Shown: positions 48,595 through 64,000 of the stretch, piece after piece
How the letters are laid out: the number at the start of each line of letters is the position of its first letter
Position numbering within the stretch: the first letter of the stretch is position 1
Assembly: GCA_050250935.1 (NCBI GenBank)
Contig: JBFWNS010000006.1
Coordinates: 92,789-156,788, forward strand
Direction of reading: 5' to 3'
Length of the DNA stretch: 64,000 bases
Source: Candidatus Margulisiibacteriota bacterium
GTDB lineage: Bacteria > Margulisbacteria > Marinamargulisbacteria > JBFWNS01
The notes under the pieces: model-generated
Database searches by the model: none
Told to the model about the DNA's origin: nothing
Seen by the model: the letters and a program-made list of their open reading frames with translations, nothing else
Made by a program: the position numbers and the translations under genes

Positions 48595-49077
48595 ATGAAA
48601 ATTCCAACCCAACTCAAACACAAACCCGTGATTGTTTCTGAAGACTACAACTTAATCGACGGTCGAACCGCCCCCGATTCTGAAGCCCAGGGCCTGTCTT
48701 TGGGGCTTGCCCAGTGGAATGACCGTGGTGGTGTGGATATTTCCGCTAAAATCTGGCGCTATACCGGCGAAAAATGGTCCCGCCAATCCGAAGAAATGCC
48801 CCTGCACCGCGTCCTGGATCTAGCCATTCTCATTTGCCAAACCAAACTTTTTTTCAAAGAGCGCTACCACAAAAACGAAAAAGACTACAAAACTTATCCT
48901 GTCCTCAACCGCGTTGGGCTTCAGGGCGGTGCCTTAAACGTGGCCATTTGCGAAGACAACGACCTCATCCAAAAAGATATCGATTTGTTTGAAGCATGCC
49001 TCAACAAAGACGATGAGTTTTTAGGCGAGCGTTTGGCGGTGTTGCATCGGGTGTTGGGGGAGTTGAGGGAGGGGTAA
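48595..49077 (+). CDS. Hypothetical protein (160 aa)
   Basis: ORF preceded by an AT-rich region with repeated taaat(t)actaa motifs. No recognised domain. Confidence 0.35.
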   Translation: MKIPTQLKHKPVIVSEDYNLIDGRTAPDSEAQGLSLGLAQWNDRGGVDISAKIWRYTGEKWSRQSEEMPLHRVLDLAILICQTKLFFKERYHKNEKDYKTYPVLNRVGLQGGALNVAICEDNDLIQKDIDLFEACLNKDDEFLGERLAVLHRVLGELREG

Positions 49078-49106
49078 AGCTGGTTTTGCCAAGCCAAGCT
49101 TGGGGT

Positions 49107-49530
49107 TCAAGTGGTGTGCGACTTCAATAGTTGTTGAACATGCATGGAAAAGCGGGTATTAAACGGTTCATGATTAAACGCGCCATCCAACAGTGCATAG
49201 GAGGGTTCGTCTCGATGGGGAGTCGGATTAAGGGTGTGCCAAAGCGCCGATTCATCGCTGAACTTTGCAATCGCTTCTTTGAGTCGCTGAACAAAAAATA
49301 ACCTTAGGGATTCATCTGCTTCGGTTTCTAAAATGGTGTCATTTAAATCGTTGAATAAGTCGAGTAGTGCTAGAGAAAATGGATTTTTTTCTCTTAAATA
49401 CCGTTCCTTTGAGAGATTGAAGCAGTGGTCTACCAGGTAGGTTTTACAGTCTTTTAGGCCTTGAAAAAGCCCTGTTGGGTTATCCCAAGTGATTCTGTAG
49501 CATTTGTTTTGATGCGGTGTTAAAAGATAG
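49107..49530 (-). pseudogene. Truncated ORF abutting the IS boundary; possibly the C-terminal remnant of the interrupted hipA/hipT-like kinase gene
   Basis: The frame is open right up to, and 4 codons into, the IS3 element end (TTG inside the IS is the only possible start). ...YRITWDNPTG... may correspond to the HipA ...SPAYDLNPT... segment after the catalytic loop. No kinase core is present. Confidence 0.3.
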
Positions 49531-49570
49531 TGTAAAGAGCCCAATCTATGTACCAGTTAAAAATGGAGAG

Positions 49571-50362
49571 CTAAAAAGTGTTTAACAAAGCCCTTGGGGG
49601 GATCCACCCAAGGGCTTTGTGAGGTCGAAAGTGGTTGTAGTCATACATCCATTCGGAGGTTATGTCTCGGACATCGTCTAAGGTTCGAAAGATATACAGG
49701 TCTAAAATGTCCTCACGGTAAGTTTTGTTGAAGCGTTCAATAAAGGCGTTTTGTGTGGGTTTGCCTGGCTTAATGTGTTCCAGTTTGACGCTGTTGGATT
49801 CAGCCCAAGATTCCAACTTAACCGACATAAACTCACGTCCGTTGTCTACTCGAATTTCATCAGGTATACCCCGTTCTTCGGCAATTTGGTTTAAGACCCG
49901 AACCACCCGTTCTGCCGGAATCGAATAGTCAATTTCAATCGCCAACACTTCTCGGTTGTGGTTATCAATGACATTAAGCGTTCTAAACTTTCGGCCCATC
50001 TCCAAACTGTCCGACATAAAATCCATGGACCAGGTCCCATTCGCTTTTTGAGGGACTTCCAACCGTTTTGGCGTTCTATTGGGAAGGCGTTTTTTTGGCT
50101 TAATCCGGTGTTTTAATTTCAGCTCTCGGTAAATCCGTCGAACCCGCTTGTGGTTCCAATGGTGCCCTTGCAATTTCAGCCAATCATAGATCTTGCCAAA
50201 GCCCCATCGTAACTTGCTCTCGGCTAGCCGACTCACCACTTCGATGACTTCCCTGTCGCCTTCTCGAATCGATTTATACCCAAATGTCCCTCGGTTCACC
50301 CATACCAATTCACACACTCGCCGTATTGAATACCCTTGCGTTTTGAGAATATGGTGTACCAA
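49571..50362 (-). CDS. IS3-family transposase OrfB (DDE integrase domain)
   Basis: ...NVIDNHNREVLAIEID... and RVDNGREFMS are rve-domain motifs. Confidence 0.85.
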   Translation of the reverse strand: MVHHILKTQGYSIRRVCELVWVNRGTFGYKSIREGDREVIEVVSRLAESKLRWGFGKIYDWLKLQGHHWNHKRVRRIYRELKLKHRIKPKKRLPNRTPKRLEVPQKANGTWSMDFMSDSLEMGRKFRTLNVIDNHNREVLAIEIDYSIPAERVVRVLNQIAEERGIPDEIRVDNGREFMSVKLESWAESNSVKLEHIKPGKPTQNAFIERFNKTYREDILDLYIFRTLDDVRDITSEWMYDYNHFRPHKALGWIPPRALLNTF

Positions 50363-50382
50363 CTCCCGTTTCGCTTCGGGCT

Positions 50383-50670
50383 TTAGAGCTTTTTTTCGAT
50401 CAGCTGCTGCAACACTTCTTTATCCATACAGACTTCGGCATACATCTTTTTAAGTCGTCGGTTTTCTTCTTCCAAACCCTTTAGCTTTTTCATCATCGGC
50501 AGGTCCATCCCGCCATATTTTGACCGCCAGCTGTAGTAGGTCGGCTGGCTGACTTTGTACTCCCGACACAACTCTGCTACTGGCATCCCGCTTTCTCCAA
50601 GTTTTAATATCTTGAAGATCTCACCTTCGCTGAATTTGCTCCGCTTCATTCGCCACTCCTTTTTAAACAT
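50383..50670 (-). CDS. IS3-family transposase OrfA (HTH)
   Basis: MKRSKFSEGEIFKILKLGESGMPVAELCREYKVSQPTYYSWRSKYGG, then a leucine zipper. It ends at the slippery GAAAAAAAG (50391-50399 on the minus strand) used for -1 frameshifting into orfB. Confidence 0.85.
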   Translation of the reverse strand: MFKKEWRMKRSKFSEGEIFKILKLGESGMPVAELCREYKVSQPTYYSWRSKYGGMDLPMMKKLKGLEEENRRLKKMYAEVCMDKEVLQQLIEKKL

Positions 50671-50724
50671 AGGCTTTCGCCTATCTTATTTTATATTTTT
50701 CTGTGGCTCAATTTTAGGGGATGC

Positions 50725-50988
50725 TTACACAAAATCATTTTGTTCAGAAAGGCCGAGCTTTTTTGTGATGGCGGTTCGTATGGCACCTTCCGGTAAAAGA
50801 TTGGCGAAGAAAAATCTGACCGAATCACCTTGATGTGGTGCTTGTTGTAATGGCAAAGATACTGAAATGGGCTGTTTTTCCTGGTTTAGCCAGGATGGGT
50901 CATACTGTAAAAACCACTGTGCCCCTTCCTTCCCCAGGTGGGCGACCAATTTTTCTTCCCAAAAAACATACAGTAGCTGTTTAGACAC
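50725..50988 (-). pseudogene. HipA N-terminal subdomain (HipS-like) fragment, truncated exactly at the IS3 right end
   Basis: ...PISVSLPLQQAPHQGDSVRFFFANLLPEGAIRTAITKKLGLSEQNDF matches the HipA_N conserved core (SLPL...FF.NLLPEG..R......s..NDF/FDLL). The stop codon is contributed by the IS terminal TTACA. Confidence 0.6.
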
Positions 50989-51238
50989 GGGTTGACTTGG
51001 ATTGAATCACAATAAACAACCCCAATCCTTTTAAAATGCTAATCACTTTAGAGAGCGAAACCGTAGGCTTTCCGTTTTCCAACTCAGACAAAAAGCGAAC
51101 CCCCACATTACATAAAGCGGCGGTTTCGGCTTGTCTTAGCCCCATTCGTTTTCTGGTCGCTCGGATGATGAGGCCGAGTTCTTTGGGGGTGTCTATAATA
51201 GTCCCGTTCGGGAAAATAGTGGTGCTTTTGGTGTTCAT
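50981..51238 (-). CDS. hipB: XRE-family HTH protein (HipB-like antitoxin)
   Basis: LGLIIRATRKRMGLRQAETAALCNVGVRFLSELENGKPTVSL is a Cro/C1-type HTH. It overlaps the downstream HipA_N fragment by 8 nt. Confidence 0.65.
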   Translation of the reverse strand: MNTKSTTIFPNGTIIDTPKELGLIIRATRKRMGLRQAETAALCNVGVRFLSELENGKPTVSLSKVISILKGLGLFIVIQSKSTRV

Positions 51239-51347
51239 GTGGTTAATTTGTTCCCGATCGGGAATAATATAGCAGACTTAATTCAAAAAGGCTACTATTA
51301 TCCCGATCGGGAATATAAAAGTCCCTTAAAAAGCCCTTAGTCAGAGA

Positions 51348-52322
51348 CTAAACCTGATCACAAAGCACAGTCAGTAGTTGGGTCGCCTTTCCGTGCCGGG
51401 CCCATCCGTACATATCCTCTCGATTGCGAGGGGGTTGGCTTAAAATAGAGAGGAGCAATTGCCCATCGTGGCCAATGCAGAATGGGGCTTTGTATTCGCC
51501 GTGTGCGCCATTGAAGGTCACGATATAAACGGCTTTAATGTCGCTGAATTTTAGGTCTATTTGGTCTGGGTCTTGAGTCAGCAAAAGCCCGTTTGGTGAA
51601 ATCTCGGCTTCTTCAAGCGAGCTGTTGCGTTGAAAGATGACCGAGGGTGTTCCCATGCTGAGGAGAAGGTCGGTTTTGGTTTTCTGGAGTTCAGTTAACA
51701 TGTGGACCAGGGGTTCTGAAACGCTGGTTAATGGGCGTACTGAGTCAGTGGCTTTACTGAGCAAGGTTAGGACGTCTTCCATGGTTTTGCCGGTGGTTAG
51801 GCGGACAATATCGGGGGCATGAGGGTGGCCTAAAACCCAAGCGCTTACGCAACCATACTCTAAGGGAACGGGTGGGGTGGTGCTGGGGCTGGTGCTTTGC
51901 AAGAGTGGGGGTGTCTCAATGGGGTCGGCAGGGGTAAGGGTTGCCACGATGGTGCCGTTCGGATTACACAGGTAAATGGTTTGGGGTGTGGTTGACGAGA
52001 CATGGGCTGTGGCACCGGGATACGACCGCAGCAAAATACCCTCAAGCCAAAATTGACCTGTTACGTCAGAAATACCTGCTTTTACGTCGGCAGGAATACT
52101 ACGCATAAATGCTTTAAGCGGTGCTTCGCTTCCCCCAATAACCGTTCCCGATGTGCGGTATGACCCACTTCCTACCTGAACTTCGCCACTAACCATGGTT
52201 CCCTCTAAGGCCTTTAAAACACCCAAAAGAGAGGTCGGTGTAGCCGAAGCATCCAAGGTTGTAAGGGATTGTCCTAATGGGGAAACAGTGAGGGGTTGGG
52301 GCGTGGCAAGGACTTTGAACAT
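51348..52322 (-). CDS. Hypothetical Ser/Thr/Pro-rich protein (324 aa), first gene of the hipB-containing transcription unit
   Basis: No recognisable motif. Low-complexity STP-rich stretches (TTPQTIY..., QSTSPSTTPPVP). Confidence 0.4.
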   Translation of the reverse strand: MFKVLATPQPLTVSPLGQSLTTLDASATPTSLLGVLKALEGTMVSGEVQVGSGSYRTSGTVIGGSEAPLKAFMRSIPADVKAGISDVTGQFWLEGILLRSYPGATAHVSSTTPQTIYLCNPNGTIVATLTPADPIETPPLLQSTSPSTTPPVPLEYGCVSAWVLGHPHAPDIVRLTTGKTMEDVLTLLSKATDSVRPLTSVSEPLVHMLTELQKTKTDLLLSMGTPSVIFQRNSSLEEAEISPNGLLLTQDPDQIDLKFSDIKAVYIVTFNGAHGEYKAPFCIGHDGQLLLSILSQPPRNREDMYGWARHGKATQLLTVLCDQV

Positions 52323-60666: not shown

Positions 60667-63600
60667 CTATAGTTTCCAATCGATCGTCAAGCGGATGGGG
60701 ACGTTTTTCAGATCGGGGGTGCCTAGGGAATAGGCTTCGAGTCGGGCACTGAGATTTTGGGAAATGGCATAGATGGTACCTACCCGTAGCAGTAGGGTGC
60801 TGTCTGAAGTGGACGAATCTGAAAATGTCTGTGCTGTGTTCGCAAGTTTATAGGAAGCGGATTGTCCAGAGAGTAGCGAATGTCCACTGACGCCGACTTC
60901 AGCAAAGGTACGGAGGTTGTCCGTATCAAAAACAAGGCCAGCACTGGTGTTCCAGATTCCAGAAACCATCGTGCGGGAATCCCAACGGAACTGGTCGCCT
61001 TCGGAATAAGCGTCTTGGTATTCGTAAACGGTGGAGACGTCGCCTGCAAGGCGTAAACTCAACCCATTTCCAAGCGCGATGGGACGTTTCAAAGATACGC
61101 CCAGCAAGGCTTCCGAGCTTTGGGTGTTCCCATGAATGGTTTGGCTTCCTGATTCTGAACCAAAATTGGTCAAAATGGTTCTAGAGGTATCCAGCCATCT
61201 TTTTCCAACGCCAATGCGCCATGACATATCGAGATCCCATAGTTTGGCAGGCCTTGATTGATAGCCAAGACGTAGACCCTTATCGGTTATCTTTTGAGCG
61301 TCATCGTTTTCAATGGCGAGTTGTGATTGCTGAACATCCAGCCAGAAAGAACCGGAAGGATCTAGTGTGAAGCCGGTGTTGATCCCTTGCGCTGCGAGGC
61401 TATATCTCGCAGTTGATTGTGCATTACGGATGCTGTTTTCTAGATAGGGGCTTACCCAAAAAGAAGTGGGGTTTTCAGGTAAGACACGCAGCAGGCTGTT
61501 GGTCCGCGCTGCGATCCAATCGTTGGCGATATCCAGTGCATCTGCGTTGGCCGCGAGTATCAGATTATTGTTTTGAGCAAACGCGCGGGTAGGGCTAGCG
61601 TTGTCGGTTACCGTCCATGTTCCTTGGGTTGCGAAGATATAAGAGCGTTTGCCAAGGTCAATCGTGAGGTCTGCGGTGTCATGGGTAAACAGGGTTCCGG
61701 TAATCAAGGTCCCACTTTTTAAGGCCAGTTTATTGGTAGAGCCCGATGCAAAATAGACCGCGTAGGCTTGGGATGCATCAGAAGCTTTGGCAGAAACGCG
61801 ACCGTTAATCGTTACAGAATTGGTTTCTCCAGAAACATAAAGGGCTGTTGCGGTACCGTTAGTAGCCGTAGCCCGTACATCCCCATTCACGTCGATGGTG
61901 ATCTGATTCTGGTCACCACTTTGATGGATCGCAAAGGCATTGCCATTGCTGGAATCGGTATAGACTTTACCAGAGACAGAGACGAGGTTATCCTGCCCCC
62001 CTTCTTGCTTGATGCCATAGCCAAGGGTTGTGCTGCCAGATGCGGAAACCATCATCTGACCGGTAACCGTGACGGTATTGCTTCCCCCACTGCCACTGGT
62101 TCCGCTAGAACCTGCTACGCCATCGGCACCCGCCACACCCGCAGAGCCGGTCAAACCACTGGCACCATCCACACCGGCCGCGCCATTAGCGCCAGCAACA
62201 CCATTGTCGCCAGCACCTGAATTGTCAGACAAACCGTCTGTACCCGAGAATCCATTCGTGCCGGAGGTGCCATTTTCAGTGTCTCCGATACCGCCAACTC
62301 CACCCATACCTTCGCTCCCACCCGTTCCGCCAGTGCTGCCAATACCGCCAGCACCGCCATTCCCGCCGTCACCGCCATTGCCGCCAAAATCGCCATCGCC
62401 GCCAGCGCCTCCAAAACCACCATTACCGCCAGCGCCTCCAAAACCACCACTACCGCCAGCACCAGCAGCGCCACCTGTTCCGCCAACGCCGCCAGATCCG
62501 CCAAGGCCGCCAATACCGCCAGCGCCGCTAACACCGCCAGAACCAGCTGCGCCGCCAACACCGGCCGCACCGCCCGTGACAACTTGTTTTATTCCATAGG
62601 CTGTTGCTTCCCCGGAAGTCGAGGTTGCTGAAGCAGAGATATGCCCAGAAAGCGTGACAACGTTGTTTCCACTGCCCCCTGTGCCACCATTACCGCCCAC
62701 ACCGCCAGTGCCGCCAATCCCTCCAGTACCACCAACCCCGCCTGCGCCGCCAGCACCGCCATCGCCGCCAGCACCACCGGCACCGCCAGCGCCACCAACA
62801 CCAGCAGCACCGCCAGCACCGCCATTGCCACCATCACCACCATTGCCGCCATTGGTGCCTGCAAATCCAGCGCCGCCAGCGCCGCCAGAACCGCCAGCGC
62901 CGCCGTTCCCGCCATTGCCGCCGTCGCCGCCAGCACCCCCCGTACTGCCAGCGCCACCATCGCCGCCAACGCCGCCGGCACCGCCAGCACCACCGGCGCC
63001 GCCAGCACCACCAGCACCGCCCGAGCCGCCAGCACCGCCGGTAGCCGATTGTTGTATCCCATAAGCAATAGCCGTATTGGCGCTGGTAGCCGTGGCTGTC
63101 ACCGTGTGAGAGAGGGTAAGGATGTTACTCCCCGTGCCGCCGCTGGCACCGTTTGTCCCATTTTGGCCATTGGCCCCAGTACCGCCAGTACCGCCACTGG
63201 CCCCGCTTCCGCCAAAAGCCCCACTTTCGCCACTATCCCCAGTTCCTCCAACGCCGCCATTGGTTCCGTCTCCTCCCGCTGTGCCATCACCTCCATCATT
63301 GCCATCGGGTGACACACCGGTTCCGTCTTGCCCAGGCATGCCTGCAGCGCCAGCAGTGCCATGGTCCCCAGCGACGCCACTAGACCCATTGGCCCCAGCC
63401 GTAGTCGCATCTGCCCCAGCGACGCCACTGGTTCCATTGGCCCCAGCCGTTCCCGTAGCTCCAGTTGTTCCAGTAGCCCCAGCTGTTCCGCTTTCACCAA
63501 CAGCAGTTTGTCCTATTCCGATGGCCGTTTCAGCGGTGCTGGACTGGTCTTCAGTGGAAATATACGTGTTGGATGTTGGGGTATCCGTTCCATAGATTGT

Positions 63601-63735
63601 AACCGGTGTTAATAACAAGAGGATCAAACACAGTTTGATATAAACAAATTTATCAAAATAGTTAATCGAGACAGTGGCTTCTGTACCCTTTGGTTGGGCA
63701 CTAGCCATCCTAGATTTGGTTGATTTTGTAGACAT
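60667..63735 (-). CDS. Giant (1022 aa) glycine-rich autotransporter-like surface protein: signal peptide, three Gly-Gly-X repeat modules, C-terminal beta-barrel
   Basis: N-terminus has a TM/signal (FVYIKLCLILLLLTPVTIYG). Residues ~60-520 are (GGX)n tracts such as GGAGGSGGAGGAGG..., each followed by a conserved ~25-aa segment (..TLSGHISASATSTSGEATAYGIKQ / ..LSHTVTATATSANTAIAYGIQQ / ..VTGQMMVSASGSTTLGYGIKQ). The C-terminal ~280 aa have alternating aromatic beta-strands ending ...RLTIDWKL. Confidence 0.65.
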   Translation of the reverse strand: MSTKSTKSRMASAQPKGTEATVSINYFDKFVYIKLCLILLLLTPVTIYGTDTPTSNTYISTEDQSSTAETAIGIGQTAVGESGTAGATGTTGATGTAGANGTSGVAGADATTAGANGSSGVAGDHGTAGAAGMPGQDGTGVSPDGNDGGDGTAGGDGTNGGVGGTGDSGESGAFGGSGASGGTGGTGANGQNGTNGASGGTGSNILTLSHTVTATATSANTAIAYGIQQSATGGAGGSGGAGGAGGAGGAGGAGGVGGDGGAGSTGGAGGDGGNGGNGGAGGSGGAGGAGFAGTNGGNGGDGGNGGAGGAAGVGGAGGAGGAGGDGGAGGAGGVGGTGGIGGTGGVGGNGGTGGSGNNVVTLSGHISASATSTSGEATAYGIKQVVTGGAAGVGGAAGSGGVSGAGGIGGLGGSGGVGGTGGAAGAGGSGGFGGAGGNGGFGGAGGDGDFGGNGGDGGNGGAGGIGSTGGTGGSEGMGGVGGIGDTENGTSGTNGFSGTDGLSDNSGAGDNGVAGANGAAGVDGASGLTGSAGVAGADGVAGSSGTSGSGGSNTVTVTGQMMVSASGSTTLGYGIKQEGGQDNLVSVSGKVYTDSSNGNAFAIHQSGDQNQITIDVNGDVRATATNGTATALYVSGETNSVTINGRVSAKASDASQAYAVYFASGSTNKLALKSGTLITGTLFTHDTADLTIDLGKRSYIFATQGTWTVTDNASPTRAFAQNNNLILAANADALDIANDWIAARTNSLLRVLPENPTSFWVSPYLENSIRNAQSTARYSLAAQGINTGFTLDPSGSFWLDVQQSQLAIENDDAQKITDKGLRLGYQSRPAKLWDLDMSWRIGVGKRWLDTSRTILTNFGSESGSQTIHGNTQSSEALLGVSLKRPIALGNGLSLRLAGDVSTVYEYQDAYSEGDQFRWDSRTMVSGIWNTSAGLVFDTDNLRTFAEVGVSGHSLLSGQSASYKLANTAQTFSDSSTSDSTLLLRVGTIYAISQNLSARLEAYSLGTPDLKNVPIRLTIDWKL

Positions 63736-63873: not shown

Positions 63874-64000
63874 TGTAAAGAGCCCAATCTATGTACCAGT
63901 TAAAAATAGAGAACTAAAAAGTGTTTAACAAAGCCCTTGGGGGGATCCCCCCAAGGGCTTTGTGCGGTCGAAAATGGTTGTAGTCATACATCCATTCGGA
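63874..64000 (-). mobile_element. Second, diverged copy of the same IS3-family element (left end plus 3' end of orfB), continuing beyond the window
   Basis: 63874-64000 aligns to 49531-49657 with ~5 mismatches in 127 bp. Same orientation as copy 1. The orfB C-terminus would end at ~63914. Confidence 0.8.

What the first reader, a model, noticed from the sequence alone, without database searches (positions are those of the whole stretch)
49107..51238. IS3 element inserted into a hipBA/hipBST-like toxin-antitoxin locus, with apparent loss of the kinase core
On the minus strand, the order is an XRE HTH (HipB-like), then an 87-aa ORF. The 87-aa ORF matches the conserved HipA N-terminal subdomain / HipS core (SLPL...FFANLLPEG...NDF). 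Its stop codon is supplied by the terminal TTACA of the IS3 element, so the gene is cut exactly at the IS right end. On the other side of the IS, an ORF is open right up to the IS boundary; its only start is a TTG inside the IS. Its first residues (...YRITWDNPTG...) loosely resemble the HipA segment after the DxHxKN catalytic loop. Neither fragment contains a P-loop or a DxHxKN motif, so roughly 200 aa of kinase core appear deleted. This is a TA toxin inactivated by IS insertion plus deletion. Alternatively, the N-fragment is an intact HipS of a tripartite system whose HipT was destroyed.
Basis: partly seen in the sequence, partly recalled or inferred. Interest (0 to 1): 0.6.

Follow-up and report, generated by a model that had tools for sequence, protein, structure and literature searches.

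The report
IS-truncated hipA toxin gene remnant
A hipBA toxin-antitoxin operon has lost its whole kinase toxin domain at the edge of an IS3-family insertion sequence, and the open reading frame on the other side of the element is an unrelated orphan gene fragment, so this is ordinary mobile-element decay of a toxin gene.

Summary
The observed layout is real. On the minus strand a HipB-like HTH gene (51238..50981) overlaps an 87-codon ORF. [quoted passage not shown] It is cut after ...SEQNDF by a 1199-bp IS3-family element (49531-50729), which supplies its last codon and its stop. The ORF on the far side of the IS (49529..49107) shows no HipA similarity. It has no hit in Pfam, NCBIfam, PADLOC or PHROGs, and a full HMMER scan of 1.84 billion proteins found only itself plus one spurious repeat protein. 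Equivalent 115-aa tails of the two closest real HipAs score E ~1e-7 against PF07804. The two flanks are out of phase, there is no target-site duplication, and no kinase remnant exists anywhere in the 64 kb. About 330 aa of HipA are therefore missing, not about 200. The HipS reading also fails: the domain is incomplete, and every relative checked is a fused hipA or a decayed one, none a hipBST. Most likely an IS-associated deletion fused a hipA stub to an unrelated truncated gene. A mis-join at the IS repeat in this metagenome-assembled genome cannot be excluded. Interest is low.

The parts
50981..51238 (-). hipB-like HTH antitoxin/repressor gene (85 aa), apparently intact
   Evidence: It matches HTH_3 at 5.7e-9 and TIGR03070 couple_hipB at 66 bits (cut-off 71.65). 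It is 46% identical to the HipB of locus L002 (tblastn 2.9e-15).
51202..51312 (.). three copies of the palindrome TCCCGATCGGGA (51202-51213 with one mismatch, 51252-51263, 51301-51312) at and upstream of the hipB start; candidate HipB operators (inferred)
   Evidence: One search found 4 matches in the window at up to 1 mismatch, against 0.11 expected by chance. Three of them cluster here, 49-50 bp apart.
50730..50988 (-). hipA stub: native codons 1-86 plus 1 nt, encoding most of HipA N-subdomain-1. The annotated 87-aa ORF runs on to 50725 using an IS-borne TG and TAA.
   Evidence: It matches PF13657 at 4e-19 (model 1-82/99) and TIGR03071 at 3e-19. The best solved structure is E. coli HipA residues 21-79 at 1e-5. 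It is 45-46% identical to the N-termini of the HipAs in L001 and L002.
49531..50729 (-). IS3-family insertion sequence, 1199 bp, with TG...CA ends and imperfect terminal inverted repeats. It carries orfA (50670..50383), orfB (50362..49571) and an A6G -1 frameshift site (50395-50389).
   Evidence: Domain and family hits are (NF033516 2.7e-61). One search gives the predicted 366-aa fusion. fix the boundary from the second copy. One search shows about 51% identity to IS3 / ISEcl10-family transposases on plasmids. One search aligns the inverted repeats.
49107..49530 (-). N-terminally truncated orphan ORF (140 codons outside the IS), not HipA-related. NCBI annotates it as a 145-aa hypothetical protein using a TTG inside the IS.
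   Evidence: Searches found only itself in 5.8 billion and 1.84 billion proteins. Searches gave no family hit. One search found no BLASTP similarity to the L002 HipA. One search gave a codon score that is the best of its six frames but at the 2.7th percentile of host genes. One search found no start codon in the flank until codon 119.
63874..64000 (-). second copy of the same IS (orfB-side end only), running off the window; same orientation as the first
   Evidence: It is 96% identical over 127 nt, and similarity begins exactly at TGTAAAG.

Best explanation
This is a decayed bipartite hipBA toxin-antitoxin operon. The hipB repressor/antitoxin gene and the first 86 codons of hipA survive. Everything downstream of codon 86 is gone: the end of N-subdomain-1, the P-loop, the catalytic DxHxKN loop, the Mg-binding motif and the C-terminal helices, about 330 aa in all. 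An IS3-family element sits in its place.

The sequence on the other side of the IS is the 3' part of a different gene with no known relatives, and that gene has lost its own 5' end. The junctions therefore do not come from one simple insertion.

The most likely history (inferred) has two steps. An IS copy inserted into hipA. Then recombination with a second, directly oriented copy inserted in the orphan gene, or an IS-adjacent deletion, removed the DNA in between. The result is a kinase-dead locus that can still express HipB and a truncated HipA stub that probably does not fold.
For: Shown by tool results:

- The hipA stub is a Couple_hipA domain cut at model position 82 of 99, and its stop codon lies in the IS.
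- The closest relatives are a hipB (73 aa) plus hipA (416 aa) pair in L002 and a hipB plus hipA pair in L001. In both, HipA continues past ...NDF/NVH with xLLxELGGDCAGA.
- The IS boundaries are defined by the second copy.
- The flanks GATAG|IS|CAAAA share no 3-5 bp duplication. They leave 1+1 nt, so the two ORFs are out of phase. Precise excision would give ...NDFAIF*.
- The flank ORF has no family hit, while control tails of the L002 and L001 HipAs score 1.6e-7 and 4.4e-7 on PF07804.
- BLASTP against the L002 HipA is negative.
- HMMER over 1.84 billion proteins finds no HipA.
- tblastn of both HipAs against the 64-kb window finds only 50973..50728.
- Five short N-domain-only relatives examined in context are all frameshifted, stopped or truncated hipA genes. 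Decay of this clade's toxin gene is therefore recurrent.
Against: - No complete second IS copy was available, so this element's usual target-site duplication length is not established.
- The deleted DNA and an intact allele were not found. The IS end is absent from the GTDB representative genomes, and no relatives of the stub appear in JGI metagenome contigs.
- The source is a metagenome-assembled genome, so the join across a repeated IS could be an assembly artefact rather than a real deletion.
- The orphan ORF's weak codon-usage score leaves some doubt that it is a real gene remnant.
Confidence: 0.8

Rival explanations
1. Both IS flanks are pieces of one hipA gene: the IS inserted and about 200 aa of kinase core were deleted, so the 140-aa ORF is the HipA C-terminal tail.
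For: Both ORFs are on the same strand and abut the IS. The length after the 'WDN' motif (about 125 aa) is roughly that of a HipA tail. A loose 'YRxT..D' resemblance was recalled from E. coli HipA, which is memory and not a test.
Against: There is no PF07804 or NCBIfam hit at E<=10, while tails of the same length from the two nearest HipAs score about 1e-7. BLASTP against the L002 HipA finds nothing. A full HMMER scan of 1.84 billion proteins returns no HipA. The conserved LAPFYD...LAMKIGxENRPxWIMxRHWERMA block of the relatives is absent. The two ORFs are out of phase.
Confidence: 0.04
2. The 87-aa ORF is an intact HipS antitoxin of a tripartite hipBST system whose hipT kinase gene was destroyed by the IS.
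For: HipS proteins are about 100 aa and homologous to HipA N-subdomain-1, and the gene order hipB-hipS matches (PMC6581861, PMC8262856). HipS structures are hit weakly, at 1e-2 to 1.4e-4.
Against: The domain model is covered only to position 82 of 99. The last residue and the stop codon are IS sequence. E. coli HipA scores better than HipS. The closest relatives are fused HipAs. The short relatives are hipA pseudogenes, not hipS-hipT pairs. No HipT-like sequence occurs in the window.
Confidence: 0.03
3. In the real genome the IS is a simple insertion into hipA. The contig is chimeric because the assembler joined the left flank of one IS copy to the right flank of another, so the 'deletion' is an assembly artefact.
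For: The source is a metagenome-assembled genome. The IS is present at least twice in this 64 kb. A missing target-site duplication with unrelated truncated genes on both flanks is exactly what such a mis-join would produce.
Against: The two visible copies differ at 5 of 127 positions, so they are distinguishable to an assembler. The contig is long (156,788 bp) and runs through both copies. Real IS-IS recombination gives the same picture. Under this rival hipA is still interrupted and inactive.
Confidence: 0.12
4. The ancestral gene was a two-domain protein with a HipS-like N-domain fused to a novel non-kinase C-terminal domain (the orphan 140 aa). The IS, plus a small deletion, split it.
For: HipS-like domains fused to other domains exist, for example HipN, which is HipS-like plus HIRAN (PMC8262856). 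The two ORFs are co-oriented and adjacent to the IS.
Against: No protein in 1.84 billion shares the C-terminal part, so no such architecture is documented. The frames do not match, and at least 40-50 nt of the N-domain are missing. The nearest N-domain relatives are all kinase fusions.
Confidence: 0.02

Closest known systems
Bipartite hipBA type II toxin-antitoxin modules (E. coli K-12 HipBA; the 'couple_hipB/couple_hipA' Y4mF-type pairs of TIGR03070/TIGR03071)
   Same: A short HTH antitoxin gene overlaps the start of a gene that opens with the Couple_hipA N-subdomain. The conserved SLSLPL and FFxNLLPE motifs are present. Palindromic candidate operators lie upstream.
   Different: The toxin is reduced to 86 native residues and has no kinase domain at all. 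The locus cannot act as a toxin-antitoxin pair.
Tripartite hipBST (E. coli O127 HipB 107 aa / HipS 103 aa / HipT 335 aa; PMC6581861, PMC10627512)
   Same: The order is an HTH gene followed by a small ORF homologous to HipA N-subdomain-1.
   Different: The small ORF is an IS-truncated stub, not a complete HipS. There is no HipT gene. The nearest relatives are fused HipAs.
IS3-family insertion sequences (nearest in the plasmid collection: ISEcl10-family / IS3-family transposases, ~51% identity)
   Same: It has two ORFs with an A AAA AAG -1 frameshift, HTH_Tnp_1 plus rve DDE domains, 5'-TG...CA-3' ends, a length of about 1.2 kb, and more than one copy in the genome.
   Different: This copy has no flanking direct repeat. 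The element's end sequence (a 26-nt exact match) was not found in the 185,579 GTDB representative genomes.
Decayed hipA genes in relatives found here (L003/L004/L008, L005, L006/L007, L009)
   Same: hipB is retained while hipA is inactivated by truncation, frameshift or stop. In L003, L004 and L008 the break lies about 9 nt from the same position and is followed by a mobile-element-type gene (RRXRR + HNH, 449 aa).
   Different: The mobile elements and lesions differ. Here the element is an IS3-family IS and the far flank is an orphan ORF.

Membership tests
HipBA (bipartite HipA kinase toxin + HipB antitoxin) | HTH (XRE-type) HipB gene immediately upstream of, or overlapping, the toxin gene | tested here: met
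   The HTH gene is 51238..50981 and overlaps the next ORF by 8 nt. It matches HTH_3 at 5.7e-9 and couple_hipB at 66 bits, below the 71.65 cut-off.
HipBA (bipartite HipA kinase toxin + HipB antitoxin) | HipA N-subdomain-1 (Couple_hipA, PF13657) | tested here: met
   The match is E 4e-19 but covers only model positions 1-82 of 99, so the domain is truncated.
HipBA (bipartite HipA kinase toxin + HipB antitoxin) | HipA_C kinase core (PF07804) with Gly-rich loop, DxHxKN catalytic loop and Mg-binding YD motif | tested here: not met
   No PF07804 hit occurs in either flank. tblastn of the two closest HipAs finds no kinase segment in the 64-kb window. The locus is a remnant, not a functional member.
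HipBST (tripartite) | Complete stand-alone HipS of about 100 aa with its own stop codon | tested here: not met
   The ORF ends in IS sequence and the domain is cut at position 82 of 99.
HipBST (tripartite) | HipT kinase gene (~335 aa, lacking N-subdomain-1) directly downstream of hipS | tested here: not met
   The downstream positions hold an IS and an ORF with no kinase similarity.
IS3 family insertion sequence | orfA (HTH) and orfB (DDE/rve) joined by a -1 programmed frameshift | tested here: met
   orfA matches HTH_Tnp_1 at 1.3e-17 and orfB matches rve and rve_3, with NF033516 at 2.7e-61. An A AAA AAG site at 50395-50389 gives a continuous 366-aa fusion. Frameshifting itself is inferred.
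IS3 family insertion sequence | Terminal inverted repeats ending 5'-TG...CA-3' | tested here: met
   The ends are TGTAAAGAGCCC... and ...GGGGATGCTTACA. The repeats are imperfect, with TGTAA identical at both ends and roughly half of the next positions matching.
IS3 family insertion sequence | Short (3-5 bp) target-site duplication flanking the element | tested here: not met
   The flanks are GATAG and CAAAA. This is read as a sign of a secondary rearrangement, not as evidence against IS3 membership.

The most novel reading that the evidence does not exclude
The retained hipB plus 86-residue HipA N-stub is not junk. On this reading it is a selected 'anti-addiction' or regulatory remnant: HipB, perhaps with the HipS-like stub, neutralises or represses related Hip kinases encoded elsewhere in the genome. 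The recurrence of breaks within about 10 nt of the same hipA position in unrelated lineages (this window; L003/L004/L008) would then reflect a preferred way of converting hipBA into a kinase-less module. Separately, the orphan 140-aa ORF could be expressed from the IS-borne TTG as a new chimeric protein.
Probability: 0.05. Interest if true: 0.4.

Novelty: new member of a known kind. Interest (0 to 1): 0.12.

Why it matters
It matters little beyond annotation. The locus should be labelled a hipA pseudogene with an orphan hipB, not a functional toxin-antitoxin system or a HipS. The 145-aa 'hypothetical protein' should be labelled a 5'-truncated orphan gene whose annotated start lies inside an IS. 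It is one more example of toxin genes of TA modules being lost while the antitoxin or regulator persists, here in a little-sampled phylum (the NCBI record names a Candidatus Margulisiibacteriota MAG). It also documents an active, multi-copy IS3-family element in that genome.

Tried and rejected
- Word-index protein searches with each fragment alone returned only the fragment itself.
- AlphaFold2 on the 140-aa fragment without an alignment gave pLDDT 44. This is unusable, so no fold search was run.
- The PDB sequence search of the 140-aa fragment gave only weak, inconsistent hits (GH105 at 0.011, GGDEF at 0.2-0.7). I rejected these as chance, because neither family appeared in the Pfam scan.
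- The single HMMER hit, P0003 (E 1.8e-4), is an 11-fold HNH_repeat protein that matches a short acidic/Leu stretch. I rejected it as a repeat artefact.
- I tried to fetch the rest of the contig and the other IS copies by exact-protein look-up, using two starts of the 1022-aa ORF, orfA, P0001 and the OrfAB fusion.
- An exact 26-nt IS-end scan of GTDB representative genomes gave 0 hits.
- A metagenome-contig scan with the hipA stub gave no confirmed relative.
- A megablast of the locus against plasmids gave no match.
- The promoter/terminator scan of 48900-51450 gave nothing above shuffles.
- The profile search with the N-domain alignment listed only proteins of 188 aa or less. It could therefore not be used as an unbiased HipA-versus-HipS length census. 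I checked five of its hits in genomic context instead.

Full report
**What is in the sequence**

On the minus strand of 49107-51238 the ORF list and the raw sequence show the following genes in order.

- An 85-aa gene at 51238..50981.
- An 87-aa ORF at 50988..50725, overlapping the first by 8 nt.
- A 95-aa ORF at 50670..50383.
- A 263-aa ORF at 50362..49571.
- A 145-aa ORF at 49544..49107.

A DUF6530 gene (48595..49077, +) converges on the last ORF. Pfam and NCBIfam identify them as follows.

- The first gene is an XRE-type HTH. It matches HTH_3 at 5.7e-9. Its best NCBIfam is TIGR03070 'couple_hipB' at 66 bits, just under the 71.65 cut-off.
- The second is a HipA N-terminal domain (PF13657 4e-19, TIGR03071 3e-19).
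- The third and fourth are the orfA and orfB of an IS3-family transposase (HTH_Tnp_1; rve and rve_3; NF033516 2.7e-61).
- The 145-aa ORF matches nothing.

**IS boundaries and junctions**

A second copy of the element begins at 63874 and runs off the window. It is 96% identical over 127 nt. In the alignment, similarity starts exactly at T49531 of TGTAAAGAGCCC. The other end is ...GGGGATGCTTACA, ending at 50729. This gives a 1199-bp element with TG...CA termini and imperfect inverted repeats. An A AAA AAG slippery site at 50395-50389 joins orfA and orfB into a 366-aa product. That product is about 51% identical to IS3 / ISEcl10-family transposases on plasmids.

At the orfA-side junction the minus strand reads ...AAT GAT TTT G|TG TAA. 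The HipA-like ORF therefore has 86 native codons plus one nucleotide, and its last codon and stop are IS-borne.

At the other junction the flank reads |C TAT CTT TTA ACA... The flank ORF is open right up to the IS. Its TTG start (49544) lies inside the IS, and there is no ATG/GTG/TTG in the flank until codon 119.

The flanks (GATAG / CAAAA) share no 3-5 bp direct repeat. They leave 1+1 nucleotides, so the two ORFs are out of phase. Precise excision would give ...NDFAIF-stop. A single clean insertion is therefore excluded.

**Is the far-side ORF a HipA tail?**

No, for these reasons.

- It has no hit in Pfam, NCBIfam, PADLOC or PHROGs, even at E<=1-10.
- The PDB sequence search gives only weak, mutually inconsistent hits.
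- The word-index search finds only the identical NCBI protein, a 'hypothetical protein' of a Candidatus Margulisiibacteriota MAG on a 156,788-bp contig.
- The exhaustive HMMER scan of 1.84 billion representatives finds only itself plus a repeat protein that I regard as spurious.

As a positive control I took the 115 residues that follow the catalytic loop in the two closest real HipAs. These tails score 1.6e-7 and 4.4e-7 against PF07804 (profile positions 143-210). The window fragment scores nothing at E<=10 in the same call.

BLASTP against the nearest HipA gives only 5-10-residue noise. The block LAPFYD...LAMKIGxENRPxWIMxRHWERMA that is conserved in the relatives has no counterpart in the fragment. 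tblastn of both HipAs against the whole window matches only 50973..50728, so no kinase remnant exists anywhere in the 64 kb.

The fragment is probably a real but foreign gene remnant. It is 140 codons open, and its codon score is the best of its six frames. That score is only at the 2.7th percentile of host genes, similar to the IS orfA, and the fragment sits in a lower-GC stretch at roughly 49.0-51.4 kb.

**HipA or HipS?**

The genome scan found two relatives at 45-46% identity.

- L002 carries hipB (73 aa) followed by a full 416-aa HipA with Couple_hipA plus HipA_C.
- L001 carries hipB followed by a 300-aa HipA that has an internal deletion.

In both, the sequence continues after ...NDF/NVH with xLLxELGGDCAGA, the end of the N-subdomain. 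The window ORF lacks this segment.

Solved structures point the same way. E. coli HipA scores 1e-5, against 1e-2 to 1e-4 for HipS-type chains.

A profile search with the N-domain alignment listed only proteins of 188 aa or less, so it could not serve as a census. I therefore examined five of these short 'HipA N-terminal domain' proteins in their genomic context.

- L005 is a frameshifted hipA.
- L006 and L007 are truncated and frameshifted.
- L009 is co-linear with HipA residues 3-377 in a single HSP, although it is called as two genes.
- L003, L004 and L008 are cut after ...NDFML and followed by a 449-aa RRXRR+HNH gene, with no kinase part.

None of them is a hipS-hipT pair. HipS is a complete protein of about 100 aa followed by a HipT of about 335 aa (PMC6581861, PMC8262856). 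Neither feature is present here.

**Best explanation**

This is a bipartite hipBA operon whose toxin gene has been reduced to an 86-codon stub at the end of an IS3-family element. The other IS flank is an unrelated, 5'-truncated orphan gene.

Three things point to a rearrangement beyond the original insertion: the missing target-site duplication, the phase mismatch and the unrelated flanks. The rearrangement was either recombination between two directly oriented IS copies (at least two exist) or an IS-adjacent deletion. These mechanistic steps are inferred. What is shown is the anatomy and the absence of any HipA kinase sequence.

Because the source is a MAG, a mis-join at the IS repeat could mimic the deletion. 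I give this about 0.12. Even then hipA would still be interrupted. hipB looks intact and is preceded by three TCCCGATCGGGA palindromes. These are plausible operators, so HipB probably persists as an orphan autoregulator.

**Novelty and verdict**

IS-mediated inactivation of TA toxins and orphan antitoxins is commonplace. The IS and the hipBA remnant are new sequences, with no close relative in the collections searched, but they are not a new kind of thing. Interest is 0.12. Its interpretation is partly supported: the hipA truncation by the IS and the accompanying loss of sequence hold, while the identification of the downstream ORF as a HipA tail and the HipS alternative do not.

Noticed in passing
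window 51202-51213, 51252-51263, 51301-51312: There are three copies of the 12-nt palindrome TCCCGATCGGGA, one with a single mismatch, spaced 49-50 bp apart at and upstream of the hipB start. The window holds 4 matches against 0.11 expected by chance. They are candidate HipB operator sites.
   Followed up: partly
L003 3001-4867; L004 3001-3832; L008 323-2193: In JGI metagenome relatives (about 45% identical N-domain) hipA is cut after ...SEKNDFML. That is about 9 nt from the position cut in the window, and a 449-aa RRXRR+HNH protein gene follows. No HipA kinase part follows it. This may be an independent mobile-element-associated break at nearly the same site, or it may be coincidence.
   Followed up: partly
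L001 4001-4903: The Desulfobacterales HipA is only 300 aa. The N-subdomain is joined to the C-terminal half of HipA_C (profile 92-208). About 116 residues, including the P-loop region, are missing relative to the 416-aa L002 HipA.
   Followed up: no
window 63874-64000 and 60667-63735: A second copy of the IS sits about 140 bp upstream of a 1022-aa minus-strand ORF. The N-terminal half of that ORF is an extremely Gly-rich array with 9-nt periodicity (51 overlapping repeat registers). The IS copy runs off the window, so its other flank could not be read.
   Followed up: no
window ~49000-51400: The hipB, hipA stub, IS and orphan ORF lie in a stretch of 41-46% GC. The flanking housekeeping-like genes are at 49-57% GC, which suggests a small acquired islet.
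   Followed up: no
window 51348-52322 (-): A 324-aa ORF immediately upstream of hipB has no hit in Pfam, PADLOC or PHROGs.
   Followed up: partly
window 49544-49531: NCBI annotation (P0001, locus tag AB7F28_07420) starts the 145-aa 'hypothetical protein' at a TTG inside the IS. Its first 5 codons are IS sequence, so the annotated protein is chimeric.
   Followed up: yes
(method): The profile search with the 86-108-aa N-domain alignment listed only proteins of 188 aa or less, although full-length HipAs with the same domain exist (L002). The candidate set appears to be length-limited, so the lengths of its hits cannot be read as the family's architecture.
   Followed up: partly
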